Positions 1,241 through 30,300 of a stretch of DNA of 64,000 bases are shown piece by piece (positions within the stretch are counted from its first letter, which is position 1; every line of letters begins with the position of its first letter). The DNA is taken from positions 1,154,346 to 1,218,345 of the forward strand of contig JASGHU010000001.1 in NCBI GenBank assembly GCA_047602265.1. The letters run 5' to 3'. The position numbers and the translations under genes were made by a program. Below the pieces are notes generated by a model. The model searched no databases. It saw only the letters and a list, made by a program, of their open reading frames with translations, and was not told the DNA's origin. The DNA is from Spongiibacteraceae bacterium. GTDB lineage: Bacteria > Pseudomonadota > Gammaproteobacteria > Pseudomonadales > CAMLJR01.

Positions 1241-3292
1241 TCACGGCACAAATTTTTTCTTCTTATCGACATGATCGCGTAACTTCTGCGCCAGCTCCTC
1301 GAAACGATGCTGAAGTGCATAGTCGATCGCGGTCCTGCCATTTTTATCGCGGCGCGATGCGTCGGCGCCGGCATTCAGCAATGCCGCAACCGCTTTACTT
1401 GATCCGCTTGAGGCGGCCAGCATCAGCGCGGTCTCGCTGCGCGCGTTGCGGTGTTCGATATCGGCTTTGGCGGCGAGTAAGCGATCGATAATTCCCACCT
1501 GTCCATTGCGTGCCGCCAATAGCAGCGGGGTGTTGCCATCGCGTGTCGGTTCATCGATTTTTGCGCCACTGCGAATAAGTAGCGCGACAACCTCGTCATT
1601 GTCGCGGCTGGAAGCGATGGCGAGTGGCGTTGAATTATCATGATCGGCCAGATCCGGCGTTGCATGTTCGCGCAGTAATAGCGAAACGATTTCTGCTTTA
1701 TTGGTTGAAGCGGCGAGCCAAAGCGCTGATCGTCCCGCGCTATCGCGTTTATCAATCGGTGCGCCCGCAGCGATCAATTGTTGTGTCGCACTGACGAATC
1801 CTCGCTGAGCACACCATTGCAACGCGGTGCCATTAGCGAAGGTGGTATTGGCGAAGGCTGTATCGATGGCATTACTTTTTGTTAGTGGTGCGTTTGTCCG
1901 TAGTGCCTTTCGCAGCAGCTCGCTGACAATTCTTTCATCGCTGTTTTTTGCCGCGTAGGCGAGCAGGTCGGAGCGTGCTCCAGTTGGATCGATAAGCGCG
2001 CCATGCTGCATCAACATCTCAACCATGGTTGCATTGTTGCGCTCGACCGCGAACCACAATGCAGTTTTTTTCTCGGGGTCGATGGCATTGGGATTAGCGC
2101 CGGCCTGCAATAGCAGCGCGATGATTTTGTTTTCGCCCTGATGCGCGGCGCGCAGCAGCGGTGTGAAATGATCGGGATCGATGCTATCGATATTACTGCC
2201 TTGTTTTATCAGCGTATCGACCAGTGTTGCATCGCCGCGCCATGCTGCGATATTGAGTGCAGGCCAGTTGCTGTAGCGCGCATCGCCGCGCTGTGCGAGT
2301 TCGGTAATCTGTGTCGATGATGTTGCGCTGCTTCCGCTATCGACAGTTTTTTCAGTGCGCTTAATGCCCGCTGCAGCGAGCAATTGCACCAGGGCGTTGT
2401 TGCCGCTTCGCTTGGCAAGATCAAGTGCATTATCACCGGATAAATTACGCGCGTCTTTGGCGATCGGCTGCGCGAGCAGCTTTTTGCAAGCGTTGAGATT
2501 GCCGCGCGCGGCGGCGATGAGAAATGCAGTGTTGCCATTTCTATCGACGGCATGCATGTCGGCCCCATGCTGTATCAACGCATCGAGTATCTGCGGATTA
2601 TCGTTGTTCGCTGCCAGCAGAAGTGCAGTGTCGCCGCTGTGATTTTTGCTGTTAATAGCGGCGCCTTTGGTCAGCAGCAGCTCGACCGCTTCCGCATTGT
2701 TATTGCCAGCCGCCAGCATCAGCGCAGTATTGCCTTCGCTGTCGCTGGTATCGATAGCGATTGCACGCGTTAATAAAATTTTAAGTTGAGCGTTGTCGCC
2801 CTTGCGCGCCGCGTGCAAAAAAATCTCGCTGTTATCGCCGGCACTTGGATTGCCTGTCTGTGAAAAACCGGCAATTTTTTGTTGTGCTGGAGCGCTGCCA
2901 TTGGCCGCAGCCCGGCGTATCCATGCCAACGCCTGTGCGCTATCGGCTTGAGTGCCGAGTCCTTTTTCGTACATCGTCGCCAGCAGGTATTGTGCTCCTG
3001 CATGATCTTGCGCTGCGGCGCGCTGGTACCATTGCAAGGCTTGCGTGTAATCGACGGCAACACCTAATCCCATCCGATACAGCGTGCCGAGTTGGTATTG
3101 CGCTTCTGCGTTGCCCTGCGCAGCGGCCTCCTGAAATTTTTGCTGGGCAGCGACGTAATTGTTTTCCAGCAGCAAATCTTTTGCATCGTCAACGATGTCG
3201 GCGCGCGCGACACAGCAACCGCTGAAAATGTACGCGATGATGAGTGCGCAGCAGCGAAAACTAGGCGACGCCGAATTTGGTTTCGATCGCAA
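1241..3292 (-). CDS. Sel1-repeat plus ankyrin-repeat lipoprotein (about 683 aa)
   Basis: Three Sel1-like repeats are seen (AEAQYQLGTLYRMGLGV..., AGAQYLLATMYEKGLG...). More than 10 ankyrin repeats follow (GNTALMLAA..N.E.V..LL..GA). I prefer an in-frame TTG at 3292, preceded by GGAGA, which gives MRSKPNSASPSFRCCALIIAYIFSG|C, a lipoprotein signal with lipobox FSGC. The ORF-track start at 3343 is also TTG. The gene overlaps the upstream gene end by 32 nt. Confidence 0.8.
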   Translation of the reverse strand: MRSKPNSASPSFRCCALIIAYIFSGCCVARADIVDDAKDLLLENNYVAAQQKFQEAAAQGNAEAQYQLGTLYRMGLGVAVDYTQALQWYQRAAAQDHAGAQYLLATMYEKGLGTQADSAQALAWIRRAAANGSAPAQQKIAGFSQTGNPSAGDNSEIFLHAARKGDNAQLKILLTRAIAIDTSDSEGNTALMLAAGNNNAEAVELLLTKGAAINSKNHSGDTALLLAANNDNPQILDALIQHGADMHAVDRNGNTAFLIAAARGNLNACKKLLAQPIAKDARNLSGDNALDLAKRSGNNALVQLLAAAGIKRTEKTVDSGSSATSSTQITELAQRGDARYSNWPALNIAAWRGDATLVDTLIKQGSNIDSIDPDHFTPLLRAAHQGENKIIALLLQAGANPNAIDPEKKTALWFAVERNNATMVEMLMQHGALIDPTGARSDLLAYAAKNSDERIVSELLRKALRTNAPLTKSNAIDTAFANTTFANGTALQWCAQRGFVSATQQLIAAGAPIDKRDSAGRSALWLAASTNKAEIVSLLLREHATPDLADHDNSTPLAIASSRDNDEVVALLIRSGAKIDEPTRDGNTPLLLAARNGQVGIIDRLLAAKADIEHRNARSETALMLAASSGSSKAVAALLNAGADASRRDKNGRTAIDYALQHRFEELAQKLRDHVDKKKKFVP

Positions 3293-4568
3293 TGCCGATT
3301 TTCTCCAGCAATTGAGTGGGCAGAATACCGCCGGCGCAAACAATCACGGCATCGTTAGTCAGTTCGATGGTTCGATCATTGATGACGATGGCCACTTTGT
3401 TGGCGGAAATTGATTGCACCTGCGATGTGAGCAGCACGCGCAGTTTTTTGCTCGCGGTCATGGCTTCGAGATTTTCGCGATTTTTCGCTTTGACACGCGC
3501 GAACGCATTGCCGCGATAGGAAAGCGTCACCTGCGTGTCGGGTTGCTCGGCGATGCTCACAGCGGCTTCGATGGCGCTATCGCCACCGCCGACGACGAGC
3601 ACATGCTGGCCGCGATATTGTTCGGGGTCGATAAGCCGGTACACGACTTTAGCAAGCTCTTCGCCCGGCACACCCAATTGGCGCGGTGTGCCGCGTCGAC
3701 CCAGACACAGTAAAACTGTGCGTGCCGAGTAATTATTTTTGCTGGTGATAACGCGAAATTCACTATCGGCTTTTTCGATGTGATCGAGACGTTCGCCAAA
3801 CTGAATTTTCAGTTGCTGCTGGGACACAATGTTTTCCCAGAATTCCAATAGTTTTTCTTTCGTCGTCTCGCGAAAAGTGACTTCGCCGACAATCGGCAAT
3901 TTCGCCGGTGCAGTCATCACGATTTTCTGGCGAGGAAAATGGGCGACGGTTCCGCCCAGCGAATCCTGATCGATGATGGTGAATTTAAGTTGTGCTTCTT
4001 TCGCAGCGAGCGCTGCGGCAATGCCGGCGGGACCTGCACCGACGATGACGAGATCGAGCGCGCAGCGATGGCGTTCACGCAGCAATTGTTTGATCGATGC
4101 AACCGCTTGCGCGCCTTGTTGCACCGCGTTGCGAATCAAACCCATACCGCCGAGTTCGCCGGCGATAAAAATGCCCGGCACGTTGGTTTCGAAATTCGGT
4201 TTGATCTGCGGAATATCAACGCCGCGCGTTTCGGTGCCGAATACCAGCGTGATTGCATGGGTCGGGCAGGCTGTTGCACAGGCGCCATGGCCGACGCAAT
4301 TGGCTGCGGCGATCAACTCGGCCTTGTTGTGAATGAGGCCGAGCACATTGTGTTCCGGACAGGCCGACACGCAGGTGCCGCATCCCAGGCAGCGATTTGG
4401 ATCGATCACCGGGTGCAGGCTGACCGGTTCATGCATGCCATCGGCGATTGATGTCGCGCGGGCTTCAAGATTCAGCTGACTGCGCCGGTGCTGTAACCAC
4501 ACATAAATCGACACAATCGCCAGCATCGGCGCGGCGTAGTACAGGCCGATGATTAACGCATCATTCAT
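3261..4568 (-). CDS. Membrane-anchored 2x[Fe-S] ferredoxin domain fused to an FAD/NAD(P)-binding (thioredoxin-reductase-fold) oxidoreductase
   Basis: There is an N-terminal TM helix followed by HRRSQ. The first cluster motif is CLGCGTCVSACP and the second is CVGHGACATACP. Two Rossmann motifs are present (VIVGAGPAGIAAA and VLVVGGGDSAIEAA). No redox-active CxxC disulfide is seen. Confidence 0.85.
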   Translation of the reverse strand: MNDALIIGLYYAAPMLAIVSIYVWLQHRRSQLNLEARATSIADGMHEPVSLHPVIDPNRCLGCGTCVSACPEHNVLGLIHNKAELIAAANCVGHGACATACPTHAITLVFGTETRGVDIPQIKPNFETNVPGIFIAGELGGMGLIRNAVQQGAQAVASIKQLLRERHRCALDLVIVGAGPAGIAAALAAKEAQLKFTIIDQDSLGGTVAHFPRQKIVMTAPAKLPIVGEVTFRETTKEKLLEFWENIVSQQQLKIQFGERLDHIEKADSEFRVITSKNNYSARTVLLCLGRRGTPRQLGVPGEELAKVVYRLIDPEQYRGQHVLVVGGGDSAIEAAVSIAEQPDTQVTLSYRGNAFARVKAKNRENLEAMTASKKLRVLLTSQVQSISANKVAIVINDRTIELTNDAVIVCAGGILPTQLLEKIGIAIETKFGVA

Positions 4569-4825
4569 CGCTTAACGGTTCTCGAACAAGCCATTCACAT
4601 CGCACGCCCATGAAGTTGCGGTGAGCGCAACGTATGCGATTGCTTCCCAGCCTAGCAAAGCCAAGTTTTAGTGCGTGCGCCGCACAGCGGGAATGTGATA
4701 CAGCGCAAAACCCGCGCTAGTTGTAAGGTCATCTTAAGATTCGCTTAAGGTTGCATCACTACGATTTGGCGGCGACCGTTCGGGACAAGCGCTCGTAGAA
4801 AACAGATAACGCACGGAGCGAGGGG

Positions 4826-5365
4826 GTGCGAAATCCGGCGTCGGTAAATTCAAGAGCGGCTGCGAGCATGCCCATGCAAAATAAAAATCTGATCACCGGA
4901 GTCGCGGTGGTCGTCTTCATCATTGCCGCAGTTGCGGCGGGTCGATATGCGGCACAGCCGCGCGTTGAAATTACGTCTCCAGTTGCACAAGCGCTTGCGC
5001 CAACGGCGTTATCGGTTCCGCAAAGTGCCTCACCGCAAATGTCTCCTGTTCAAGGCAAGGTCGATGCGGTCGATGTGATGGTCGAGCGATTGCGCACACG
5101 CCTCGAGCGCGAACCTAACGATGTCGATGGCTGGGTGTTGTTAGGTCGCTCCTATCATTATCTCGAACGCTGGGAAGACGCTAAAGCTGCGTTCGCGAAA
5201 GCGCGCGAGCTCGGATACAAAGGCGATGGCGATATGCCGACGTCTTCGATAACCGACGATCAGAGCGGCGGCCGCGATGCCGGCAATGCAGAGCCTGTTT
5301 TTCACGACATCGGTCGCGTCGGCAGCGATAAGGGTTCTTCCACACAAACTGGAATTGCGCCGTGA
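4826..5365 (+). CDS. Membrane-anchored TPR protein resembling the C-terminal part of CcmI/CycH/NrfG
   Basis: There is one TM helix (ITGVAVVVFIIAAVAAG). A TPR segment follows (VERLRTRLEREPNDVDGWVLLGRSYHYLERWEDAKAAFAKARELG), as in cytochrome c maturation TPR proteins. GTG at 4826 is preceded by GGAG; an alternative ATG lies at 4868. Confidence 0.6.
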   Translation: MRNPASVNSRAAASMPMQNKNLITGVAVVVFIIAAVAAGRYAAQPRVEITSPVAQALAPTALSVPQSASPQMSPVQGKVDAVDVMVERLRTRLEREPNDVDGWVLLGRSYHYLERWEDAKAAFAKARELGYKGDGDMPTSSITDDQSGGRDAGNAEPVFHDIGRVGSDKGSSTQTGIAP

Positions 5366-6216
5366 ACGCAGCGACTGCTGCGCCGGCGCGCGCAAAAAAT
5401 AAAACGCAATACGCCGATCGCAGCAGCACCATTTTATTTTCGCTGACGGTGATTGCCGCGCTGATCTACGGCTGGCAACACCGCGGCGAATACTACCTCA
5501 CGGCGGAGCACGGCATCGGCTATGCGCTTGGCATCATCGGCGGCTCGATGATGTTGCTGTTGCTGCTCTATCCATTGCGCAAACGGCTGCGTTTTATGGA
5601 GCGTTGGGCGCCGCTGCGTTTTTGGTTTCGCACGCACATGATTCTGGGTGTGATCGGTCCGCTGTGCATTCTGTACCACTGCAATTTTCAGCTCGGTGCC
5701 GCCAATAGCAATATCGCATTGCTGTGCATGGGGTTGATGGTCGGCAGCGGGCTCATCGGTCGCTTTATTTACGGAAAAATTCACTACGGTCTCTACGGTC
5801 AGCGCGCAACGCTGCAGGAATTGCAAAAACAAATGCAGGCTTCGGAGCAGGCGCTGCGCAATCAGCGCGATGCCAGTCTCGGTGACGCGGCGTTTGAACG
5901 TTTGCGCGCGCTGGAAATTTTTGCGCTGCAGCGGCGCAGTTTTTTCGGCAATATCGCGCGCCTTCTAACCATCGGCCGTCGTACCCGTGCCGAACACAAA
6001 TGGTTTGTGGCCCATCTCGGCAAGCTTGCCGTGCACAGCGAAATCAAGCACGAGGTCCTCGCGCAAATTCACACCTTTCTCGCCGTGATCAAGCGCATCG
6101 CCGGTATCAGCTTTTACGAACGTTTATTTTCATTGTGGCATGTGCTGCACATGCCGATATTTTTCATGCTGGTCGTCACCGGGCTGATACATGTCTATGC
6201 CGTGCACCTGTATTGA
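5362..6216 (+). CDS. His-rich polytopic inner-membrane protein (about 5 TM helices plus a coiled-coil loop), family unknown
   Basis: Hydrophobic helices occur at about aa 24-38, 52-73, 88-106, 118-137 and 258-281. His residues lie in TM3 (HMILGVIGPLCILYH) and TM5 (WHVLHMPIFFMLVVTGLIHVYAVH). The GTG start overlaps the upstream stop (GTGA). Confidence 0.7.
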   Translation: MNAATAAPARAKNKTQYADRSSTILFSLTVIAALIYGWQHRGEYYLTAEHGIGYALGIIGGSMMLLLLLYPLRKRLRFMERWAPLRFWFRTHMILGVIGPLCILYHCNFQLGAANSNIALLCMGLMVGSGLIGRFIYGKIHYGLYGQRATLQELQKQMQASEQALRNQRDASLGDAAFERLRALEIFALQRRSFFGNIARLLTIGRRTRAEHKWFVAHLGKLAVHSEIKHEVLAQIHTFLAVIKRIAGISFYERLFSLWHVLHMPIFFMLVVTGLIHVYAVHLY

Positions 6217-7804
6217 TGGCGGTCGTTGGCTGCGCGAAATCGGCGTATTTTTTCTTGTCGTATTGATGATGTTATTCGCTCGCCCTGTGAATGCAGAAAA
6301 CTTCAATTTTAAAAGCCTGTTGATGCCGGGAAAGCTGGTGGAGGGACACGCCAAATTGGAAAGCGATTGCAATCAATGCCACGCGTCTTTTGCCAAGCAG
6401 GCACAGGATCAGCTCTGTGTTCAGTGCCACGATGTCATCGCGGCCGATATTGCCAATAAAAAAGGTTTTCACGGCAAGCTCGATCATCAAACCGCATTGA
6501 CGTGCAAGCAATGTCACACCGATCACCGCGGTCGCGATGCGGATATCGTCGGCCTCGATCGCGATACGTTTAATCACGCCGCGACCGATTTCAATCTTGA
6601 AGGTAAGCACGCCGGTCTCGCCTGCGCGAGCTGCCATGAGCAGGGGAAAAAATTCCGTGACGCCAGCAGCGAATGTTTTGCCTGTCATCGCAAAGACGAT
6701 CGCCATAAAGGCGCGCTGGGAAAACAGTGCGCAACGTGCCATAGCCCGGTGGCGTGGAAGCAGACGCGTTTCGACCACGGCAAAACGCAATTCGCGCTCA
6801 AGGGTGGGCACCAGCAAGTCAATTGTGCAGCGTGTCATCCCGGCGAGAGCTACAAAAATACCCCGAAAGCCTGTGTGTCGTGCCATGCGCTGAACGATGT
6901 GCATCGCGGTGCCAACGGCGATAAATGTCAGCAGTGTCACAACGAAAGCGGTTGGAAAAAAACCACGTTCGATCATGCGCGCGACACCCATTTCGCACTG
7001 CGCGGTGCGCATGCAACAACGAATTGCAGTGGCTGTCATCGCGAAGGCAAGTTTGAGGTGAAATTAAAAACCGAGTGCGTCGCCTGCCATCGCACCGACG
7101 ATATTCATAAAGGAAAAAATGGCGAGCGCTGCGATTCGTGCCACAACGAATCGTCCTGGTCACAGAAAAAATTCGATCACAACACCGCGACGAAATTCAT
7201 GCTCAAAGGCAAGCATGCCGATGTTGCGTGCAACAGTTGTCATCGCGGCAATGTGCACGACGCATTACCGCAGACGTGTATCGGCTGCCATCGACTCGAT
7301 GATGTACACAAAGGGCAGCAGGGCGAAACCTGCGATAAATGCCACAACGAAAACGGCTGGAAAAATAAAGTCGCTTTCGATCACAGCAAAACCCAATTTC
7401 CGCTGCAGGGTTTGCATGCCGTAGTGCCGTGCGAAGGATGTCATATCAGTGCCGCGTTTAAAGGCACGCCGACGCGTTGTATCGGCTGCCACAAAAAAGA
7501 TGACAAGCACAAAGGTTCGTTCGGCGATAAATGCGATTCGTGCCACACCAGCAAGGGCTGGAAACGTGTGTTGTTCGATCACAACAAAAATACGCAATTT
7601 CCGCTCACGGGTGCCCATGCAAAAACGCAATGCACTGATTGTCATCGCGAGCCAGCGGACAAAGTGAAGTTGTCACGCGATTGTTTCAGTTGCCACGATG
7701 CCGATGACACGCACGACGGACGCTTCGGCCGTTATTGCGAGCGTTGCCACAACACGACGGATTTTAAAAACGTGGATTTCAAGCAAATGAATTTGCTCCA
7801 TTAG
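6191..7804 (+). CDS. 21-heme c-type cytochrome made of seven tandem c7-type triheme modules
   Basis: I counted 21 CXXCH motifs in the translation. The repeating module is FDH..F.L.G.H...C..CH / C..CH..DD.H.G / C..CH. A signal peptide is present (IGVFFLVVLMMLFARPVNA|EN). The start (6191 or 6197) overlaps the upstream gene by about 26 nt. Confidence 0.9.
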   Translation: MSMPCTCIDGGRWLREIGVFFLVVLMMLFARPVNAENFNFKSLLMPGKLVEGHAKLESDCNQCHASFAKQAQDQLCVQCHDVIAADIANKKGFHGKLDHQTALTCKQCHTDHRGRDADIVGLDRDTFNHAATDFNLEGKHAGLACASCHEQGKKFRDASSECFACHRKDDRHKGALGKQCATCHSPVAWKQTRFDHGKTQFALKGGHQQVNCAACHPGESYKNTPKACVSCHALNDVHRGANGDKCQQCHNESGWKKTTFDHARDTHFALRGAHATTNCSGCHREGKFEVKLKTECVACHRTDDIHKGKNGERCDSCHNESSWSQKKFDHNTATKFMLKGKHADVACNSCHRGNVHDALPQTCIGCHRLDDVHKGQQGETCDKCHNENGWKNKVAFDHSKTQFPLQGLHAVVPCEGCHISAAFKGTPTRCIGCHKKDDKHKGSFGDKCDSCHTSKGWKRVLFDHNKNTQFPLTGAHAKTQCTDCHREPADKVKLSRDCFSCHDADDTHDGRFGRYCERCHNTTDFKNVDFKQMNLLH

Positions 7805-7825
7805 GATGAGCGAGGCTTCGCTGCC

Positions 7826-9555
7826 ATGAACGATACATACACGACATTCGCACACATGATTCGATTCGTTCGCTATTGCTTGCTGGTGTTGTGCTGTTGT
7901 GGCGCGGCAAGCGCGGCGGATTTCGATCACACCAAAACCGGATTTGCGCTGGAGGGGCCGCACGCACATATCGCCTGCGAAAGTTGTCACGTGCGCGGAC
8001 AATTCAAAGGTACACCGCGCAATTGTGCGGGTTGTCATACGCCGGGAACGATGGTTTCAGCATCGGCAAAATCGCCGAAGCACATTAATTCGACGGCCGA
8101 TTGCGCAGCGTGTCATCGCAGTGTGACGAGTTGGGATTCTGTCACGCGCGTCGATCACACGGCCGTGCTCGGTAATTGCGGCAGTTGTCATAACAATCGT
8201 CTGGTCGCAGGTAAACCGGCGGGACATATTCAGTCGGGCGACGATTGCAAATCCTGTCATAACACCAGTTTGTGGAGCGCTGCAGGTTTTGATCACACCG
8301 GCATCACCGGCAATTGTGTGAGCTGTCATAACGGTCAAACCGCGCCGGGTAAATCGGCGGATCACGTCACCGCGAGCAATACTTGCGAGAGTTGTCATTC
8401 AACGCGCGCATGGTTGCCGGCGCGTTTCGATCACGCGGGTATTTCGAGTAATTGCGTGAGCTGCCATAACGGCACGCGCTTCACCGGAAAATCGAGCAGC
8501 CATATCGCGTCGTCAAATCTTTGCGAGTCTTGTCACGGCACTGCGATGTGGGTGCCGGCAACGCATGTCGATCACACACAGGTGACGGGTTCGTGCGCGA
8601 GTTGCCATAACGGCACGATTACGACGGGAAAAAATCCGACGCACATCGCGAGCACCAATGCGTGCGAAGCGTGTCATTCGACGAGTGTGTGGAGTCCGGT
8701 GACGCGTGTCGATCACGCGCAAGTGACCGGTTCGTGTTCGAGTTGCCATAACGGCGTCAAAGCCACGGGAAAAAATCCAACACACATCGCCAGCACGAAT
8801 ACTTGTCAGGCGTGTCACTCGGTGAGCGTGTGGAATCCTGCAACGCGTGTCGATCACACGCAGGTGACGGGTTCGTGCGCGAGTTGCCACAACGGCACCA
8901 CGGCAATTGGAAAATCGCCGAGCCATATCGCCACCAATTCGAGTTGCGATTTATGCCATACCACGAGTGCGTGGTCGCCGACGCATTTCGATCACAGCGG
9001 CGTTAGCGGAACGTGCGCGAGTTGTCACAACGGCACCACCGCGACGGGAAAATCACCGAGCCATATCAGTACGACATCGAATTGCGATTTATGTCATACC
9101 ACGAGCGCGTGGTCGCCAACGCATTTCAATCACAGCGGTGTCACGGGTACGTGCGCGAGTTGCCATAACGGCACCACCGCCACGGGAAAAAGCCCGACCC
9201 ATATTGCGAGCACCAATGCGTGCGAAGCGTGTCACTCGACCGCAGGTTGGAGTCCGGCAACACGCGTCGATCACACGCAGGTCACCGGTTCGTGTTCGAG
9301 TTGCCACAACGGCACCACGGCAACTGGTAAATCGCTCACGCATCCGGGCACCACAAATACCTGCGATGCCTGCCACAGCACCACTGCGTGGTCGCCGCTG
9401 CGGCGCATGGATCACACGCAATTATTGTCGACCACGCGCTGCGATAGCTGTCACTTGAACGATAAGCCGCGCGATCATCCAAGCACGGGCGGCAAAGATT
9501 GCGGCGCGTCGGGTTGTCACGGCACCGCGCACAATTACACGTCGTGGAGCAGGTA

Positions 9556-9556
<1 letters not shown>
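7826..9556 (+). CDS. 22-heme (plus one CX4CH site) c-type cytochrome: an N-terminal c7-like triheme followed by ten tandem di-heme units
   Basis: I counted 22 CXXCH motifs plus CGASGCH near the C-terminus. The unit motif is (R/H)(V/F)DH..V.G.C.SCHNG..A.GK...HI.....C..CH....W.P. A signal peptide is present (MIRFVRYCLLVLCCCGAASA|AD). Confidence 0.9.
8144..9454 (+). repeat. Intragenic tandem repeat array, period 138-141 bp (46-47 aa, two heme sites per unit), about 10 units
   Basis: The unit anchor residue, Asp in nine units and Asn at 435, falls at residues 110, 156, 202, 249, 296, 343, 389, 435, 482 and 529. The adjacent units 8909-9046 and 9047-9184 match at about 118 of 138 positions by manual alignment. 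Confidence 0.85.
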
Positions 9557-11770
<2,214 letters not shown>

Positions 11771-11772
<2 letters not shown>

Positions 11773-11791
11773 GGCGGAGTATTTCCGCCTC
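11771..11791 (+). terminator. Stem-loop at the operon end (8-bp perfect stem GAGGCGGA/TCCGCCTC, 5-nt loop), no U-tract
   Basis: The hairpin starts within the TGA stop of the last gene of the cytochrome operon. The lack of a T-run makes intrinsic termination uncertain. Confidence 0.45.
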
Positions 11792-11864
11792 GGTGTGATC
11801 GCGGCCAATTCAAGCCGCCGCGTTTTGTCAGCGACAAATGTTTTGTCGGTGATGTCGGTAATAA

Positions 11865-24690: not shown

Positions 24691-24779
24691 GGCTGTGCGC
24701 TCTTTAAATGTGCCGCCAATCTAGCGCAGCGGTTAGCCGCAAGGTAGTCTGCGCGCTGCGAAAGATGGGCGGGAACGCG

Positions 24780-27182
24780 ATGAAACGTTGGTGGTGGGCG
24801 ATATCGATAGCACTGATTGCGCTGTTGGTTGTGGCGATCTGGCAGTGGCGAATTCACGCTGCCGATGAATCCTCTGCGCGCATCGATCCCCCAGCGCCCG
24901 TGACCGTCGGCGAAAGTGAGCCAAAGATTTCGTTTGCCTCCGCGCCCGAGTTTTATCGCGACATCAAACCGATTCTCGATCAGCGTTGTGTGGTGTGCCA
25001 CGGTTGTTACGATGCGCCGTGTCAGCTCAAGCTCGACTCTGCGGAAGGATTGCTGCGCGGTGCGACGCGGGTCCCCGTGTACGACAGTCGGCGGGTGGTG
25101 GCGGCAGAGCCGACGCGTCTTTTTGTCGATGCGCATTCTGTGCAGGCGTGGCGAGAGAAAAACTTTTTCTCGGTTCTCACCGAAGACGAACCCGGCGCCG
25201 AGAATAATCTGCGCCGAGGCGATTCGAGTAGCAGCGTGTTGTACCGCATGTTGGCGCTCAAGGCGGATCATCCACTGCCGGATGGAGCATTGCCCGCCTC
25301 GGTCGACACCTCGCTCGATCGCAAAGCCTTTTGTCCAAATCGCGACAACTTCGATCAATATGCGAAAGAGCGTCCGCTGCACGGCATGCCGTATGGCTTG
25401 CCGGCGTTGAGCGATGACGAGTTTGCGAAAATGGCGCACTGGCTGGAAGCGGGCGCTGAAATTGCCGCGCTGCCGCCGATCTCGACTTTCGCGCAAAAGG
25501 CGAGTGGCGATTGGGAGCGATTTTTAAATCGCAACGATCTCAAATCGCAATTGATGGCGCGCTATCTCTACGAACATTTATTTCTCGCCGATTTATATTT
25601 CAGCGACAACGATGCGCGCGAATTTTTTAAACTGGTGCGCTCGCGCACGCCGCCCGGCGATGCTATCGATGTGATTGCAACACGTCGGCCGTTCGATGAT
25701 CCGCAGGTCGAGCGCGTTTATTATCGTCTGCAACCGTACCGCGCCACCATCGTTGCCAAAACACATTTGCCTTACGCGTTGAATGCACAGCGCATGCAGC
25801 GCTGGCAGCAATTGTTTTTGCAATCCGATTATGCGGTGAATGAGTTGCCCTCCTATGAGGTGGATGTTGCGGCGAATCCGTTTATTGCTTTCGCTGCAAT
25901 TCCGGTGCAGGCGCGGTATCGCTTTCTGCTCGATGATGCAGACTATTTCATTGCGACCTTCATCAAGGGGCCGGTGTGCCGCGGCCAACTCGCACTGAAT
26001 GTGGTCGACGATCAATTCTGGGTAATGTTTGCCAATCCCGATATCGAAGCGATGGTCGATGGCGATTTTCTGTCGCGCGAAAGCAGGCATTTGCGTCTCC
26101 CGAGCGAAATCGAAAATCAGCCGCTCGGTTTTACCAAGTGGAAAAAATACGCGGATTTACAGGCCAAATATTTGGCGGCAAAGGAAGCGTATCTATCGCA
26201 AAAGTTTCCAAGTCCGCAGGCGGTGACGCTCGATCTGATTTGGAATGGCGAAAACTCGATTCAGGGTTCGCAGAAAAATCCCAGCGCTGCACTCACCGTG
26301 TTCCGGCATTTCGATAGCGCCAGTGTCGTGCAGGGATTTGTCGAACCGTTGCCGAAAACGGCGTGGGTGATCGATTATCCGATGCTGGAAAGAATTTATT
26401 ATTTGCTGGCGGCGGGTTTCGATGTTTACGGCGATGCGAGTCATCAGTTAATGACGCGGCTGTATATGGATTTTCTGCGGATGGAAGGAGAAACCAATTT
26501 TCTGAATTTCCTGCCAAAAGCTGCGCGCGAAAAAACACGCAATGGCTGGTATCAGGGAGTCGGTGCAAAATTTCGCGATTCGGTCTATCGAAAGGTCGGC
26601 GCGTATCAGCGCGAAAGTGGCATTCACTATCGCAGCAAAAATTCGCAGCGCGAGTTTTTCGATCTGCTGAGCGCGCGGCTCGGCAGCGCATTGACGCATC
26701 GCTATGACCTTGAGGCGTCGACTCTCACGCCGGTGTTGCAAAAGTCGTTGCAAAAAATTGCGCGGTTGCGAGGCGCCGCCGTTGCATATCTGCCGGAAAC
26801 GGTTTTATTGCGCGTGGTGATTCGCAACGAGCCCGATCGTATTTTCACGCTGATTCACAACAACGATCACAGCAATGTCGCGGTGTTGTTGTTCGAGCAG
26901 GCGCGGCGCCGACCTGAGCGCGACAGCGTGAGCGTGGTTCCCGGTATCGTCGGCGCCTATCCGAACGCATTTTGGGTGGTGCATGAAGATGACCTGCCGC
27001 AGTTGGCGCGCGACCTGGCGAAGGTTCGTACGTCCGCGGGCTATCGCGCAATCGCTGCGCGTTATGCGGTGGCGCGCAACGGCGCGCGCTTCTGGCAAGA
27101 GGGCGATTGGGTGCTGAACACCTATCGCAATCTGGAGCCGATCGAGTGGGGCATTCTCGATTACAGCCGTTACGAGCGCTAG
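24780..27182 (+). CDS. cti: Fatty acid cis/trans isomerase (periplasmic heme c enzyme)
   Basis: A signal/TM segment (MKRWWWAISIALIALLVVAIW) precedes the Cti-typical heme motif context (RCVVCHGCYDAPCQLKLDS). The product is about 800 aa. Confidence 0.85.
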   Translation: MKRWWWAISIALIALLVVAIWQWRIHAADESSARIDPPAPVTVGESEPKISFASAPEFYRDIKPILDQRCVVCHGCYDAPCQLKLDSAEGLLRGATRVPVYDSRRVVAAEPTRLFVDAHSVQAWREKNFFSVLTEDEPGAENNLRRGDSSSSVLYRMLALKADHPLPDGALPASVDTSLDRKAFCPNRDNFDQYAKERPLHGMPYGLPALSDDEFAKMAHWLEAGAEIAALPPISTFAQKASGDWERFLNRNDLKSQLMARYLYEHLFLADLYFSDNDAREFFKLVRSRTPPGDAIDVIATRRPFDDPQVERVYYRLQPYRATIVAKTHLPYALNAQRMQRWQQLFLQSDYAVNELPSYEVDVAANPFIAFAAIPVQARYRFLLDDADYFIATFIKGPVCRGQLALNVVDDQFWVMFANPDIEAMVDGDFLSRESRHLRLPSEIENQPLGFTKWKKYADLQAKYLAAKEAYLSQKFPSPQAVTLDLIWNGENSIQGSQKNPSAALTVFRHFDSASVVQGFVEPLPKTAWVIDYPMLERIYYLLAAGFDVYGDASHQLMTRLYMDFLRMEGETNFLNFLPKAAREKTRNGWYQGVGAKFRDSVYRKVGAYQRESGIHYRSKNSQREFFDLLSARLGSALTHRYDLEASTLTPVLQKSLQKIARLRGAAVAYLPETVLLRVVIRNEPDRIFTLIHNNDHSNVAVLLFEQARRRPERDSVSVVPGIVGAYPNAFWVVHEDDLPQLARDLAKVRTSAGYRAIAARYAVARNGARFWQEGDWVLNTYRNLEPIEWGILDYSRYER

Positions 27183-27301
27183 CGGGTTGGGGTAAGACGG
27201 TTCGGGTAGAGAGCCGGTCGGTGTGCGTACAAGACCGCATGGAGAGGTCGCCCATGCTGCTCTAGACTTTCTCCACCCCGGTCTTCTTGTGTATCCCGAG
27301 C

Positions 27302-30300
27302 ATGCCAGTCAACGCCTTACGCCGAATGCTGCAATCGCAGTCTTCATCGCCACTCGCCCATCTGCCGGCGAGCGTTGCTTTGGGGCTGGCGCTTCCCTCG
27401 GCCATTTTGGGCATCGTGTTGATCGGCATGAATCTGCATCTGGTCGGCATGCTGGCGTGGGCCGCCGCGATCGCGATGATTGCGGCGGCGCTGCGCGGAC
27501 TCTACGCCGCGGGAGTGGTCGCCGGTCTGGCGTTGGCCGGCGCACTGCTTTGGCGACTCATCCTTGGCGACTCCACGGTGTTGAGCGGCGCCGAACAGAT
27601 GGCCCTGATCGTTCTCACGTTGCTGGCGGGTGGTATCGGCAGGTTAGTCTCGCGCGACATTCAGCAGCGCGAAAGGGTGGCCGCCGCGCAGCTTCAGCTC
27701 GATGTCTTCGCGAAGATGATCGAGTCAGTTCTCGAATCCAGCCGCGACTGCGTGAAGTTGTTAGCGACCGACGGTTCGATTCTCTCCATCAATGCAACAG
27801 GCTTGAAATTGATCGGTGTGGAAAGCGCCGAGCAGATTGTCGGCAAGAACTGGTTTTCGCTGTGGGGTACGGAACAGCAGAAGTCACTCGCCTCAGCCTG
27901 GCATCAGGTGCTGACGCGCGGGCACGCGCAGTTCGACGGCAGTTGTCGCATTTTTACGGGCGAACGTCGCACCTGGCATAACACCTTCACACTGGTGCGT
28001 ACGCCCGATCAGAATCAGCCCTATGTCGTCTGTATTTCGTGCGATATGACCGACAGCGTCAATATGCAGCAGACGCTCGACACCAGCGTCGCGCAATTGC
28101 GAGGTCTGCTCAATCATATCGACGAAGGTTCGCTGGCGATCGATAACAGTTGGACGATCCGGTTTGCCAATCGGTGCGGTGAGCAATTGTGTGCGAACCT
28201 CGATCGTGCGAATCCGGTCGGGCGCAGTCTGTGGGAAGTGTTTCCGTTCAAGCGCGACGAGCCCGCATCGATTTTGATTCGCCGCGTCATGGAAGAGCAG
28301 GCGATGCAGCATTTCGATTATTTTTTTGCGCCGCAGCAATTGTGGCTCAGCATTTCAGTCTTTCCCGCCAACAGCGGCATTTATATTTTGGCGCGCGACA
28401 TCACTGCATTAAAGCAGACGCAGCAGGCTTCGGCAGAGGAAAATGCGCGGCTGCAGGTGGCGCAGGAAATCGCCGGTTTTGGCGATTGGGGATTTGATTA
28501 CGATCAGGGTTCCATGCAGTTTTCAGCGCGCGCGGTGGCGATGCTGGAAATGGAAAATTGCGCGCCGCACGAATATAAAAAACATTTGCTGGACAAGTTG
28601 AATGCACGCGATCGCATGGCGCTGGTGCAATCCATCATCAACTGTACTGAAGCGGCGCCGACGCTCGATTTGATCGTCAGTTTTCCCGGTCGCGATGGCG
28701 CGAATAAACATTTGCATTGGATCGGTCGCCTGCTCACCGACGAACGCGGCAACGCTGCACGCATGCTCGGTGCGATTCAGGACATCAGTGAGCATTTGAA
28801 TGCGCAGCACTCGTTGGAAAAAGCGCGCAGTCTGGTGCGCGATCTCGTCGATGCGCTGCCGCAACAAATTATCGTGCTCGATAAAGACGGGAAATTGGTC
28901 GTCGCCAATCGGTCGTGGCTCGAACTGCGCAAGCGGTATTACCGCAATGAAGATGCGCCCTCGAATTTCTTCGAGTTATGCGACGAGGAAAATAGCAAGC
29001 GCACGATCGTTGCGAAAGCGCAGCAGGCAGCGCAGTCGATTTTGAACGCCGAGCAGGATCGTATCGAGTACGAATATACGATCGATCACGGCGGTAAGCT
29101 GCAGCATTTTCTGCTGCAGGCGAGAGCCTTGCGCAATAACTCGGAATTGTTGGCCTTGCTCGTTCATCAGGAAACGACGGCATTGAAGCGCTCGCTCAAT
29201 GCCGCCTCCAACGCCGAGCGCATGGTGTACAAACTCGCGGAAAATATGCCGGAAATGTTCTGGATTTACGATGCGGAAGCGAATTGCTATTCGTACATGA
29301 GTCCGGCGATCGAGCGAATTTTCGGCATTCCGCCGAGCGTAGTGCTGAACAAGGATCTGAGTTTTGTCGATTATATTCATCCGGACGATCGCGACCATGT
29401 GCAGCAATTGTTAGCGCAACTGTTGCACGGAGAGGCTCAGCTCAATATCGACTGTCGCATTATCAATGCGCAGGGCGAGCTGCGCTGGATCAACAATAAT
29501 TCGATTTCGTTGCGCGATGAAAATGGCAAAGTTGCACAGATCGTCGGTATCTCTCGCGATATCACAAGCACTAAATTGTACGAGCAGCAATTGCTCGAAG
29601 CGGCTTATCACGATGATCTCACCGGATTCGCGAATCGCGTCGCCTTGCGCAATCATCTCGCGCAATGTGCTCAGCGCACTGAATCGACCGTATTGCTGCT
29701 GTTGAATATCGACCGCTTTAAAAATATCAACGACACGCTCGGGCATGCCTGTGGCGACGAATTGCTGCAGCAGGTGGCGCAGCGCTTGCGCACAGCGCTG
29801 ACGGATGTGTTTATTGCGCGCACCGGTGGCGATGAGTTTGCGATTGTCTGTACGACAGCACAGCGACATACAATTATCGATGCGGCACTGCTGTGTTTCA
29901 CCGAGGCGTTTTCTCTCGCGGAAGAGAATGCGTTCGTGACAGCATCGCTCGGCGTCGCGATGTACCCCGATGACAGCGACAGCATCGATGGTCTGATCAA
30001 ATGCGCCGGCGCTGCATTGCAGCGCGCGAAAGCGGCGGGACGCAATAATTACCAGTTATTCAAAGATACGATGTCGCTACCGAGTCGCGAGCGGCTCGCG
30101 CTCGAAAATGAATTGCGCAGCGCCGCGCAATGCAATGAATTCGAATTGTTTTACCAGGGCAAGTTCGATCTGGAGCGCGGAACCTTGGTGGGGGCGGAAG
30201 CGTTGTTGCGGTGGCGCTCGCCAAAACGCGGGTTGATTTCCCCGGCAGAATTTATTCCGCTATTGGAGGAGACGGGCTTGATTATTGCCGTCGGCGAATG

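What the first reader, a model, noticed from the sequence alone, without database searches (positions are those of the whole stretch)
1241..11791. Divergent seven-gene cluster that looks like a complete, undescribed cytoplasm-to-surface electron conduit (43-44 hemes)
Seen in sequence: two tightly packed transcription units diverge from a 257-bp control region (4569-4825). The leftward unit has a membrane-anchored 2x[Fe-S] ferredoxin/flavoprotein (3261-4568), which overlaps by 32 nt a Sel1+ankyrin lipoprotein (1241-3292). The rightward unit has five genes in order. First is a CcmI/NrfG-like TPR protein. Second is a His-rich 5-TM protein whose start overlaps the upstream stop (GTGA). Third is a 21-heme c7 polymer. 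Fourth is a 22(+1)-heme di-heme-repeat cytochrome. Fifth is an AMIN-linker-beta-barrel protein whose GTG overlaps the cytochrome stop (TAGTG). A hairpin follows the last stop. Established knowledge: an outer-membrane barrel plus periplasmic or extracellular multiheme cytochromes defines porin-cytochrome conduits (Shewanella MtrCAB, Geobacter Pcc/Ext clusters). Inference: this cluster is such a conduit, but with two unusual parts. Its inner-membrane entry module (flavo-ferredoxin + His-rich TM protein) does not look like CymA/NapC, NrfD-type or bc-type quinol dehydrogenases. Its AMIN-anchored barrel does not look like MtrB. I cannot place the combination in any described system from memory.
Basis: partly seen in the sequence, partly recalled or inferred. 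Interest (0 to 1): 0.85.

Follow-up and report, generated by a model that had tools for sequence, protein, structure and literature searches.

The report
PCC3-type porin-cytochrome electron conduit cluster
This is a real and widely conserved gene cluster for a predicted electron "wire" across the whole cell envelope; its four core genes match the already described but never tested PCC3 type, and I found no published note of the NAD(P)H-type flavo-iron-sulfur enzyme that nearly always sits beside it.

Summary

The claim that the cluster is undescribed is only partly right. Genes D-E-F-G are a 5-TM His-rich membrane protein, a 21-heme cytochrome, a variable multiheme cytochrome and an outer-membrane barrel. 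They meet every published defining feature of "PCC3" (He et al. 2017), in the same gene order as Sideroxydans ES-1 Slit_1446-1449. PCC3 was still called functionally uncharacterised in 2026.

The window comes from a Spongiibacteraceae MAG. In 80 related loci from other species:
- the core is syntenic;
- the flavo-FeS protein (B) and the Sel1/ankyrin protein (A) accompany it in 54 of 62 loci with enough flank;
- B is the best-conserved protein (median 58% identity);
- all five B homologues examined from B's own side sit next to the membrane protein and a cytochrome.

I found no paper that mentions this link.

My favoured reading is that B (FAD/NAD(P)H plus two Fe-S clusters, one with an invariant His ligand) feeds a di-heme-b membrane protein (D). 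That would make a quinone-independent, NOX-like entry to the heme wire. This step is inferred, not shown.

Verdict: a new member of a known but untested kind, with a testable new mechanistic lead.

The parts
1241..3292 (-). A: periplasmic Sel1 + multi-ankyrin repeat protein (about 683 aa; start TTG 3292 or 3343). Proposed scaffold or assembly partner. Function inferred only.
   Evidence: Pfam Ank_2 at 1.9e-74 and Sel1 at 2.1e-16. An N-terminal hydrophobic signal segment is present. Found downstream of B in 54 of 62 loci, median 33% identity. A lipobox-like motif occurs in only 8 of 59 homologues.
3261..4568 (-). B: membrane-anchored flavo-iron-sulfur oxidoreductase. It has an N-terminal TM helix, a ferredoxin domain (one Cys4 and one Cys3His motif) and a thioredoxin-reductase-like FAD/NAD(P)H domain with no redox CxxC.
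   Evidence: Pfam Pyr_redox_3 at 2.1e-47 plus Fer4 families. NCBIfam YpdA-like, 177 bits, below the cut-off. Closest solved structures are YpdA/Bdr 7a7b, TrxR and TrxR-type FNRs. TM segment at residues 3-25. Seven invariant Cys plus invariant His94. Most conserved protein of the cluster, median 58% identity, and divergent within 1.5 kb of D in 53 loci. All 5 contexts looked up from B's side contain the IMP and a multiheme cytochrome.
4569..4825 (.). 257-bp divergent intergenic region between B and C. Presumed shared control region.
   Evidence: Coordinates and sequence. No sigma-70 consensus match, so the promoter type is unknown.
4826..5365 (+). C: membrane-anchored CcmI/CycH/NrfG-like TPR protein. 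A lineage-restricted accessory, probably an apocytochrome chaperone.
   Evidence: TPR_CcmH_CycH at 1.7e-09, 38.2 bits, below the 42 cut-off. NrfG weak. TM segment at 18-44. tblastn finds it in only 22 of 80 loci, mostly from Cellvibrionales-like lineages. A true CcmI with the same Pfam domain sits in a ccm operon next to a barrel homologue. TPR is fused to the IMP in P0325.
5362..6216 (+). D: PCC3-type inner-membrane protein. It has 5 TM helices, two WX3HX13H motifs (TM3, TM5), SGXXG (TM4), and a cytoplasmic helical insert of about 100 aa. Predicted to bind two b hemes.
   Evidence: Motifs at residues 88-106, 129-133 and 259-277. W88, H92, H106, S129, G130, G133, W259, H263 and H277 are invariant in 18 homologues. 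AF2 model has pLDDT 75.5 with 5 TM helices. No Pfam or PDB sequence match. Only weak sub-threshold DUF4405 and Ni_hydr_CYTB hints. The family has 3095 representative clusters.
6191..7804 (+). E: periplasmic 21-heme cytochrome c. Six regular c7-like triheme repeats of about 67 aa follow a less regular N-terminal triheme unit.
   Evidence: 21 CXXCH motifs; the spacing 16-18/18/32-33 repeats six times after an irregular first unit. Cytochrome_C7 at 6.6e-27. 21 hemes in 60 of 68 homologues. 25.6 aa per heme.
7826..9556 (+). F: 22(+1)-heme cytochrome c with 23-24-aa one-heme repeats, rich in T/S/A/G. Either extracellular or threaded through the barrel. Its length is hypervariable among relatives.
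   Evidence: 22 CXXCH plus CX4CH at residue 559. T+S+A+G is 45% and there are 26.2 aa per heme. The N-terminal ~230 aa resemble DmsE/MtrA decahemes, at 86 bits against a cut-off of 192, and weakly match 6r2q chain A. Homologues carry 5-49 hemes. Among the 25 C-terminal tails printed, the last Cys motif near the C-terminus appears as CX2CH, CX3CH or CX4CH.
9556..11772 (+). G: outer-membrane protein. It has a signal peptide, an AMIN-like beta domain, a Pro/Thr-rich disordered linker of about 135 aa, and a beta-barrel of about 22 strands.
   Evidence: AF2: barrel at 289-738 with pLDDT mostly 80-95, N-terminal domain at 33-146, low-confidence linker at 149-284. PDB matches are generic barrels only. 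No Pfam hit. AMIN is weak in 6 of 15 homologues and present in an L086 relative. The N-terminal domain is conserved in 30 of 44 barrel ORFs. Present in 38 of 40 loci with enough downstream flank.
11773..11818 (+). Terminator-like hairpins after the last gene.
   Evidence: GAGGCGGA-gtatt-TCCGCCTC at 11773-11793, read. A second stem at 11801-11818 followed by a T-run.

Best explanation
The cluster is a gammaproteobacterial member of the PCC3 class of predicted porin-cytochrome conduits. A conserved cytoplasmic-side partner extends it.

Proposed path:
1. B is anchored in the inner membrane with its domains in the cytoplasm. It exchanges electrons between NAD(P)H and FAD and passes them through two [4Fe-4S] clusters. 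The His-ligated cluster is probably the exit cluster.
2. D carries the electrons across the membrane on two b hemes, held by the His92/His263 and His106/His277 pairs.
3. E, a 21-heme chain built of triheme units, spans the periplasm.
4. F (22-23 hemes), whose gene is translationally coupled to G, passes through or docks on the ~22-strand barrel G. G is tethered to the cell wall by an AMIN-like domain.
5. A (periplasmic Sel1/ankyrin) and C (CcmI-like TPR) are scaffold or maturation helpers.

The thermodynamically sensible direction is outward, from NAD(P)H to extracellular Fe(III)/Mn(IV) oxides, humics or other acceptors. That would make it a split, NOX-like route that bypasses quinones.

Shown here: gene content, motifs, predicted folds and conserved linkage.
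Inferred: cofactors, contacts between the proteins, direction of flow and substrate.

My confidence by layer:
- PCC3 identity: about 0.9.
- Trans-envelope electron conduit: about 0.7.
- B-D as its inner-membrane module: about 0.45.
- Outward NAD(P)H-driven flow: about 0.35.
For: PCC3 features are all present:
- The four components are in the same order as ES-1 Slit_1446-1449.
- The IMP signature WX3HX13H x2 plus SGXXG is invariant, as defined in PMC5566968.
- The 21-heme protein has ~67-aa repeats like the Riftia-symbiont example.
- The second cytochrome is T/S/A/G-rich at 26 aa per heme.
- A beta-barrel is predicted.

Synteny in 80 species-level loci:
- E is found in 78 of 80 loci; 60 of 68 long E-like ORFs have exactly 21 hemes.
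- F is variable and G is present in 38 of 40 loci.

The B-D link:
- B is present in 54 of 62 loci, divergent and within 1.5 kb of D in 53. It stays linked even where it has been relocated (L052, L053, L063, L070, L077).
- B is the most conserved protein (58%).
- All 5 B-side look-ups land next to the IMP and a multiheme cytochrome, including one in Ca. Tenderia.

B's chemistry:
- A TrxR/YpdA/FNR-like FAD-NAD(P)H fold without CxxC.
- An invariant Cys3His cluster motif.
- A charge distribution after the TM helix that places the domains in the cytoplasm.

D's His pairs are spaced i/i+14 on two helices, as in the di-heme cytochromes b (established knowledge). D also shows weak recurring hints to DUF4405 and Ni_hydr_CYTB.

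Barrel homologues always sit with cytochromes or ccm genes.
Against: - No experiment exists for any PCC3. In S. lithotrophicus ES-1 both PCC3 clusters went down on Fe(II).
- D has no significant fold or sequence match to any solved cytochrome b, FRD or NOX. Heme binding is therefore inferred from motifs alone.
- No B-D fusion protein was found among 150 family representatives; of the 10 long ones scanned, the recognisable N-terminal extensions are TPR or SPOR and the rest have no Pfam match.
- Eight of 62 loci have no B within 10 kb, so D can apparently work without an adjacent B.
- I could not check whether the betaproteobacterial type clusters (ES-1, SP-6) have B or A.
- Electron export from NAD(P)H would dissipate membrane potential, so its physiological pay-off is unclear.
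- Many carriers are sulfur-oxidising autotrophs, for which electron uptake is the more often proposed role.
Confidence: 0.5

Rival explanations
1. The published PCC3 model. The conduit takes electrons inward from an extracellular donor (Fe(II), reduced minerals, a cathode). D acts as a quinone-reducing cytochrome b that feeds the respiratory chain. B and A are peripheral, for example regulatory or repair functions.
For: He et al. proposed this model. PCC3 occurs in iron oxidisers. Many carriers among the 80 loci are lithoautotroph-type lineages such as Thiohalomonadaceae, Thiogranum, Chromatiaceae and Ca. Tenderia. Eight of 62 loci have D-E-F without a nearby B. Inward electron flow to quinone would conserve energy.
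Against: It leaves unexplained why a cytoplasmic NAD(P)H-type flavo-FeS protein is the best-conserved and most tightly linked neighbour. No quinone site or quinone-family match was found in D. ES-1 PCC3 is down-regulated on Fe(II). The window's host and many other carriers are heterotroph-type marine Cellvibrionales or Alteromonadales.
Confidence: 0.25
2. A, B and C form a dedicated biogenesis module and are not part of the working electron path. B and D deliver reducing equivalents across the membrane to keep heme iron or the roughly 90 apocytochrome cysteines reduced during attachment. C (CcmI-like) and A (repeat scaffold) chaperone the very long apocytochromes.
For: C resembles CcmI/CycH/NrfG, and a barrel homologue sits next to a complete ccm operon that includes CcmI. 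B is TrxR-like. A is a periplasmic repeat protein of the kind typical of chaperones and scaffolds. Forty-three or forty-four heme sites are a heavy maturation load.
Against: D is the first gene of the structural operon, is translationally coupled within it, and is part of every PCC3. D has no conserved Cys pair for thiol relay. B lacks the CxxC of disulfide reductases. C is missing from most loci.
Confidence: 0.15
3. The cytochromes act mainly as a periplasmic or surface electron store (a capacitor), or serve a soluble periplasmic reductase. The barrel has a role other than housing a cytochrome.
For: The large heme numbers have been discussed as capacitors. A 22-strand barrel is smaller than the 26-strand MtrB (MtrB size from established knowledge). 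Neither cytochrome has a canonical lipobox for surface anchoring.
Against: F-G translational coupling and near-universal F-G adjacency. No catalytic reductase gene lies in or next to the cluster. F's N-terminus resembles the barrel-inserted MtrA/DmsE family.
Confidence: 0.07

Closest known systems
PCC3 porin-cytochrome c cluster (He et al. 2017, PMC5566968; e.g. Sideroxydans lithotrophicus ES-1 Slit_1446-1449 and Slit_0867-0870, Leptothrix cholodnii SP-6, Riftia endosymbiont)
   Same: It has the same four components in the same order (IMP, periplasmic MHC, second MHC, porin). The IMP has 5 TM helices with SGXXG and two WX3HX13H motifs. The periplasmic MHC has 21 hemes in repeats of about 66-67 aa. 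The second MHC is T/S/A/G-rich, has a variable heme number and about 26 aa per heme.
   Different: The published definition has four genes and a quinone-linked model. Here, and in about 87% of related loci, a divergent pair (flavo-FeS oxidoreductase plus Sel1/ankyrin protein) travels with the core. This lineage adds a CcmI-like TPR gene. The host is a Spongiibacteraceae MAG, not a known iron oxidiser.
MtrCAB / MtoAB / PioAB (Shewanella, Sideroxydans, Rhodopseudomonas)
   Same: The logic is the same: a multiheme cytochrome gene directly upstream of, and coupled to, an outer-membrane barrel gene. F's N-terminal ~230 aa weakly resemble the DmsE/MtrA decaheme family (86 bits; 6r2q chain A at E 4.5e-4).
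   Different: The barrel gives no MtrB_PioB match and about 22 rather than 26 predicted strands. There is no MtrC/OmcA-type lipoprotein and no CymA/NapC quinol dehydrogenase. Heme numbers are two to five times higher. The periplasmic gap is bridged by one 21-heme protein instead of small shuttles.
Geobacter c7-polymer cytochromes (GSU1996 family) and Pcc/Ext clusters
   Same: E is a polymer of c7-type triheme domains (Pfam Cytochrome_C7; NCBIfam nanowire_3heme, weak). The cluster combines a porin with periplasmic and outer cytochromes.
   Different: E has seven triheme units where GSU1996 has four (established knowledge). No PDB chain reaches sequence-level similarity. The GSU2203-family match is far below cut-off. 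The inner-membrane partner differs from ImcH, CbcL and CbcBA.
NOX / ferric reductase (FRD) / MsrQ-type and cytochrome b561-type di-heme transmembrane electron carriers
   Same: Two bis-His pairs are spaced i/i+14 on two TM helices, predicting one heme near each membrane face. A flavin/NAD(P)H dehydrogenase sits on the cytoplasmic side.
   Different: D has 5 TM helices, not 6. It gives no Pfam Ferric_reduct or b561 match and no significant fold match. The dehydrogenase is a separate TrxR-like protein with two Fe-S clusters, not a fused FNR-like domain. The acceptor is a 21-heme c-type wire rather than O2, Fe(III) or MsrP.

Membership tests
PCC3 (He et al. 2017) | Clustered genes for an inner-membrane protein, a periplasmic MHC, a second (extracellular) MHC and an outer-membrane beta-barrel | tested here: met
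   D-E-F-G are contiguous and co-oriented. The order is the same as Slit_1446-1449.
PCC3 (He et al. 2017) | IMP of about 300 aa with 5 TM helices, SGXXG on TM4, and WX3HX13H on TM3 and TM5 | tested here: met
   D is 284 aa. Motifs lie at 88-106, 129-133 and 259-277 and are invariant in 18 homologues. The model shows 5 TM helices. This signature is shared with PCC4 IMPs, so it is not sufficient on its own.
PCC3 (He et al. 2017) | Periplasmic MHC with about 21 hemes built of internal repeats | tested here: met
   21 CXXCH with a 67-aa period. The Riftia-symbiont PCC3 example has 7 repeats of 66 aa. The Gallionellaceae cluster has 21, 24 or 27 hemes.
PCC3 (He et al. 2017) | Second MHC of low complexity, rich in T/S/A/G, with 22-39 aa per heme and a variable heme number | tested here: met
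   T 14.1%, S 13.0%, A 9.7%, G 8.3%; 26.2 aa per heme. Homologues carry 5-49 hemes.
PCC3 (He et al. 2017) | Direct sequence homology to the type clusters of S. lithotrophicus ES-1 or L. cholodnii SP-6 | not tested
   The single genome-contig scan returned only the 80 closest of 336 relatives, none of them betaproteobacterial. The afdb50 library was unavailable.
PCC3 (He et al. 2017) | Extracellular location of the second MHC and actual electron transfer | not testable with these tools
   This needs fractionation, heme staining and electrochemistry. The literature still calls PCC3 functionally uncharacterised.
MtrCAB/MtoAB | MtrB/PioB-family 26-strand barrel | tested here: not met
   No Pfam hit for G. 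About 22 strands are predicted. MtrB is not among the top 50 PDB fold matches.
MtrCAB/MtoAB | DmsE/MtrA-family decaheme partner | tested here: inconclusive
   The N-terminus of F scores 86.4 bits against TIGR03508, whose cut-off is 192.2. It matches 6r2q_A at E 4.5e-4. This is resemblance, not membership.
NOX/ferric-reductase domain | Pfam Ferric_reduct 6-TM domain with two bis-His heme sites | tested here: not met
   There is no Ferric_reduct hit even at E<=10. D has 5 TM helices. The His spacing is compatible, but family membership is not supported.
Di-heme cytochrome b superfamily (Ni_hydr_CYTB / DUF4405 type) | Significant profile or fold match | tested here: inconclusive
   DUF4405 hits 6 of 18 members (best E 0.081) and Ni_hydr_CYTB hits 4 of 18 (best E 0.069). 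Cytochrome b561 structures appear only among non-significant Foldseek hits.
AMIN domain (PF11741) | Pfam AMIN match in the N-terminal domain of G | tested here: inconclusive
   The window protein has no hit at E<=1. Six of 15 homologues hit it, best E 0.0033. An L086 relative is annotated AMIN at E<=1e-5. The beta domain is modelled at pLDDT 60-80.
CcmI/CycH/NrfG TPR chaperones | TPR_CcmH_CycH above the gathering score | tested here: inconclusive
   38.2 bits against a cut-off of 42. NrfG at E 0.0012. Positional homologues in L083 and L084 carry the domain on record.
TrxR-like FAD/NAD(P)H oxidoreductases (YpdA / TrxR-type FNR) | Two dinucleotide-binding domains; with or without the redox CxxC | tested here: met
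   Pyr_redox_3 at 2.1e-47. 7a7b at 2.2e-26, plus TrxR-type FNRs. No conserved CxxC outside the Fe-S motifs. B falls below the YpdA equivalog cut-off, so it belongs to the superfamily but not to YpdA itself.

The most novel reading that the evidence does not exclude
PCC3 is not a quinone-linked iron oxidase. It is a quinone-independent, split NOX-like trans-envelope oxidoreductase. A dedicated membrane-anchored NAD(P)H flavo-FeS enzyme (B, with a His-ligated exit cluster) reduces a new family of 5-TM di-heme-b proteins (D). D hands the electrons to a periplasm-spanning 21-heme wire and a barrel-threaded outer wire. This would give many marine heterotrophs and sulfur oxidisers a direct cytoplasm-to-mineral electron outlet. 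On this reading the conserved unit is six genes, not four.
Probability: 0.3. Interest if true: 0.8.

Novelty: new member of a known kind. Interest (0 to 1): 0.55.

Why it matters
PCC3 is one of the most widespread predicted extracellular-electron-transfer systems outside the Mtr and Geobacter paradigms. The D family alone has about 3,100 representative clusters, and relatives occur in 336 species genomes. Nobody yet knows what PCC3 does or how electrons cross the inner membrane.

The tight, conserved pairing of the membrane protein with an NAD(P)H-type flavo-iron-sulfur enzyme gives that open step a concrete and testable hypothesis. It also questions the default assumption that PCC3 marks iron oxidation in metagenomes.

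Tried and rejected
- Exact-match look-up of D on the source contig failed, probably because of how the GTG start is translated. P0019 later identified the source as a Spongiibacteraceae MAG.
- A profile search of the D alignment against PDB sequences gave only noise. Foldseek of the D model against PDB gave nothing significant.
- I looked for B-D fusion proteins among 150 family representatives. Of the 10 long ones scanned, the recognisable N-terminal extensions were TPR or SPOR and the rest had no Pfam match; none was Fer4 or Pyr_redox.
- I searched papers and supplements for the ES-1 flanking genes (Slit_1444/1445/1450, Slit_0866/0871/0872) to see whether the type clusters have B or A. Nothing was found. 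He et al.'s supplementary tables are stored as images.
- I considered G as a usher, TonB-dependent receptor or polysaccharide-export barrel. I rejected this because the fold matches are generic (TM 0.3-0.45) and the neighbours are always cytochromes.
- I considered a DsbD/CcdA-like thiol relay for D. I rejected it because D has no conserved Cys pair.
- I considered inward electron flow to NAD(P)+. I rejected it as thermodynamically implausible for Fe(II)-range donors, because it runs uphill in redox potential and against the membrane potential (inference from established bioenergetics).

Full report
**1. Observation**

The seven ORFs exist at the stated coordinates. Motif counting gives 21 CXXCH in E. 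F has 22 CXXCH plus one CX4CH at residue 559. The other five proteins have none.

- A has Sel1 and many ankyrin repeats.
- B has Fer4 followed by Pyr_redox_3/Pyr_redox_2.
- C has a sub-threshold TPR_CcmH_CycH match (38.2 bits against a cut-off of 42).
- E and F match Cytochrome_C7, and F also matches Paired_CXXCH_1.
- D and G match nothing.

GTGA at 5362-5365 joins C and D. TAGTG at 9554-9558 joins F and G. B overlaps A by 32 nt if A starts at the TTG at 3292. The divergent gap is 257 bp. An 8-bp-stem hairpin lies at 11773-11793, and a second terminator-like stem follows at 11801-11818. The simple sigma-70 scan found no promoter-like site in the region.

Four details need correcting:
- B's second Fe-S motif is C-X2-H-X2-C-X3-CP. 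His94 and seven Cys are invariant across 62 sequences. So B has one Cys4 site and one Cys3His site.
- A's lipobox is not conserved; only 8 of 59 homologues have one. Read by eye, the 12 N-termini printed look like ordinary signal peptides.
- AMIN is not detectable in the window's G. It is weakly detectable in 6 of 15 homologues, and one relative carries it on record.
- C is lineage-restricted.

**2. Source and surroundings**

D and B are 100% identical to proteins of a Spongiibacteraceae MAG on a 3.54-Mb contig.

The flanking genes are unrelated to electron transfer. They include a small membrane protein and a small ORF on one side, and an OmpA-like protein, an aldo/keto reductase, a Kdo transferase, a TolC-like protein and a type II topoisomerase B subunit (GyrB/ParE-like) on the other. 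Further along are a fatty-acid cis/trans isomerase, c-di-GMP enzymes and ribonucleotide reductase. The cluster is therefore a self-contained unit.

**3. What the parts look like**

*D.* D has five TM helices and a helical insert of about 100 aa between TM4 and TM5 (AF2 pLDDT 75.5). By the positive-inside rule the insert is cytoplasmic. D carries WFRTH-X13-H on TM3, SGLIG on TM4 and WHVLH-X13-H on TM5. All the key residues are invariant in 18 homologues down to 43% identity.

Two His pairs spaced i/i+14 on two helices are the classic arrangement for one b heme near each membrane face. That statement rests on established knowledge of cytochromes b and ferric-reductase domains. The topology puts His92/His263 near the cytoplasm and His106/His277 near the periplasm; this is inference.

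No solved structure or Pfam family matches D significantly. Only weak, recurring hints to DUF4405 and prokaryotic cytochrome b561 appear.

*B.* B has an N-terminal TM helix followed by basic residues, so its domains face the cytoplasm. Then come the ferredoxin domain and a TrxR/YpdA/TrxR-type-FNR-like FAD-NAD(P)H domain. It has no redox CxxC.

*E.* E consists of six regular triheme c7-like units with a 67-aa period after a less regular N-terminal triheme unit, at 25.6 aa per heme.

*F.* F has one heme per 23-24 aa and is 45% T+S+A+G. Its first ~230 aa weakly resemble MtrA/DmsE decahemes. Among the 25 C-terminal tails printed, the last Cys motif near the C-terminus appears as CX2CH, CX3CH or CX4CH.

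*G.* G is modelled as signal peptide, small beta domain (33-146), disordered Pro/Thr-rich linker (149-284) and a barrel of about 22 strands (289-738), with pLDDT mostly 80-95 in the barrel. The PDB matches are generic barrels such as FimD, MOMP and porins, with TM scores of 0.3-0.45. MtrB is not among the top 50.

**4. Comparative evidence**

*The D family.* D has 4,339 hits at E<=1e-3 in the 90%-clustered collection. It has 3,095 representative clusters at 50% identity. A scan of one genome per species found relatives in 336 genomes, and I analysed the best 80 loci.

*Synteny.* tblastn and ORF maps show a nearly fixed layout, A(-) B(-) | [C] D E F G(+).
- E is found in 78 of 80 loci; 60 of 68 long E-like ORFs have exactly 21 hemes.
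- F carries 5-49 hemes.
- G is found in 38 of 40 loci with at least 8 kb downstream.
- B and A are found in 54 of 62 loci with at least 4.5 kb upstream.
- B is divergent and within 1.5 kb of D in 53 loci.
- Where B-A is not upstream it is still linked. It lies downstream of G in L052, L053 and L063, and co-oriented upstream in L070 and L077.

*Conservation.* B is the most conserved protein, with median identity 58%. The others are D 44%, E 47%, G 33% and A 33%.

One of them is from Ca. Tenderia.

*From G's side.* A distant homologue lies next to a 2,916-aa multiheme cytochrome and a full ccm operon. Another lies near a B-like protein and an IMP-like protein. The AMIN-like N-terminal domain is conserved in 30 of 44 barrel ORFs.

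*C.* tblastn finds C in 22 of 80 loci, mostly from Cellvibrionales-like lineages.

*Fusions.* I found no B-D fusion. Of the 10 long D-family members scanned, the recognisable N-terminal extensions are TPR or SPOR and the rest have no Pfam match.

**5. Comparison with what is known**

He et al. 2017 (PMC5566968) defined PCC3 as a cluster of four genes: a porin, an extracellular MHC (median 34 hemes), a periplasmic MHC (median 21 hemes) and a ~300-aa IMP. The IMP has five TM helices, SGXXG on TM4 and WX3HX13H on TM3 and TM5. They found PCC3 in Alpha-, Beta- and Gammaproteobacteria and proposed that the IMP is a quinone-active di-heme cytochrome b.

Their Riftia-symbiont example has seven 66-aa repeats. 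In ES-1 the order is Slit_1446 IMP, Slit_1447 periplasmic MHC, Slit_1448 extracellular MHC and Slit_1449 porin. That is identical to D-E-F-G. Every published defining feature that could be tested here is met (see the membership table).

Direct alignment with the ES-1 or SP-6 proteins could not be done.

PCC3 remains functionally unverified. It was down-regulated on Fe(II) in ES-1.

He et al.'s main text contains none of the words ankyrin, ferredoxin, FAD, pyridine nucleotide, Sel1 or tetratricopeptide. No paper in the searchable library combines PCC3 with ankyrin or thioredoxin reductase. Within the limits of that library, the B/A association appears unreported.

**6. Mechanism**

The best-supported reading is a trans-envelope heme wire of the PCC3 type, whose inner-membrane module is the B-D pair.

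The steps are NAD(P)H to FAD to two [4Fe-4S] clusters in B, then two b hemes in D, then the 21 hemes of E, then the 22-23 hemes of F held in or on G. The His-ligated cluster in B recalls the exit clusters of [NiFe] hydrogenases, which is established knowledge.

Linkage, conservation, cofactor motifs and topology support this path. None of the contacts or cofactors has been shown.

On thermodynamic grounds I favour outward flow. Electron entry to NAD(P)+ from Fe(II)-range donors would run uphill both in redox potential and against the membrane potential.

I propose A and C as scaffold or maturation helpers.

The rivals are set out in their own sections:
- the published inward, quinone-linked model;
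- a biogenesis-only role for A, B and C;
- a capacitor or soluble-reductase role.

**7. Verdict**

The feature is real and non-random, but it is not categorically new. It is a new, gammaproteobacterial, heterotroph-hosted member of the known but untested PCC3 class.

The added value is the evidence that the conserved unit is larger than the four genes published, and that it includes a cytoplasmic NAD(P)H-type enzyme. That evidence suggests a different and testable inner-membrane mechanism.

Interest is moderate, at 0.55. It would rise to about 0.8 if the split-NOX-like reading is confirmed.

Noticed in passing
window 3261-4568 (-), residues 91-102 of B: The second ferredoxin motif is C-X2-H-X2-C-X3-CP. 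Its His is invariant in 62 sequences. This implies a Cys3His-ligated [4Fe-4S] cluster, an unusual feature for a ferredoxin domain of this type.
   Followed up: partly
L027 17452-20298 (+): A Cellvibrionaceae locus has an extra F-like cytochrome after the barrel gene. It is 948 aa with 32 CXXCH and a canonical lipobox (VAAC). This looks like an MtrC-like surface lipoprotein addition to PCC3.
   Followed up: no
L087 130-8880 (+) and 11341-17582: A distant barrel homologue is preceded by a 2,916-aa multiheme cytochrome. A complete ccmABCDEFGH-ccmI operon follows it directly.
   Followed up: no
L084 6954-8724 and L088 1965-3971: A DUF5666 + DUF6502 gene pair is inserted between the B-like gene and the IMP side of the cluster in two unrelated loci. 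It may be a further accessory module.
   Followed up: no
L001 (CAZCNY010000003.1): The closest relative of the whole cluster (B 85%, E 78%, D 73% identity) is labelled 'uncultured Verrucomicrobiaceae'. Given the similarity to a Spongiibacteraceae MAG, this is probably mis-binning, mislabelling or recent transfer.
   Followed up: no
output (PDB 6r2q_A): The only PDB sequence hit of F is 6r2q chain A (333 aa), which the tool lists as 'Cystathionine beta-synthase'. From memory, 6R2Q is the Shewanella baltica MtrCAB complex and chain A is MtrA. The label looks wrong.
   Followed up: no
window 27287-30901, 31876-33177, 40778-42841: Three large c-di-GMP turnover proteins (PAS-GGDEF-EAL, GGDEF, PAS-GGDEF-EAL) and a FimV-like protein (33312-35063) lie within 30 kb downstream of the cluster. 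No link to the cluster is evident.
   Followed up: no
window 24708-27182 (+): A fatty acid cis/trans isomerase gene (Pfam CTI, E 1e-257). It is a stress-adaptation enzyme unrelated to the cluster.
   Followed up: no
L085 5359-8782: A reduced variant has B divergent from the IMP plus two shorter c7-like cytochromes (322 and 439 aa) and a SPOR protein. It has no A and no recognisable barrel. This suggests that B-D-cytochrome modules also exist without the outer-membrane part.
   Followed up: no
P0119; L020: The 287-aa IMP homologue of Paraglaciecola sp. MB-3u-78 is named 'pyridine nucleotide-disulfide oxidoreductase' in NCBI and UniRef. The name seems to have been carried over from the neighbouring B gene.
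   Followed up: no
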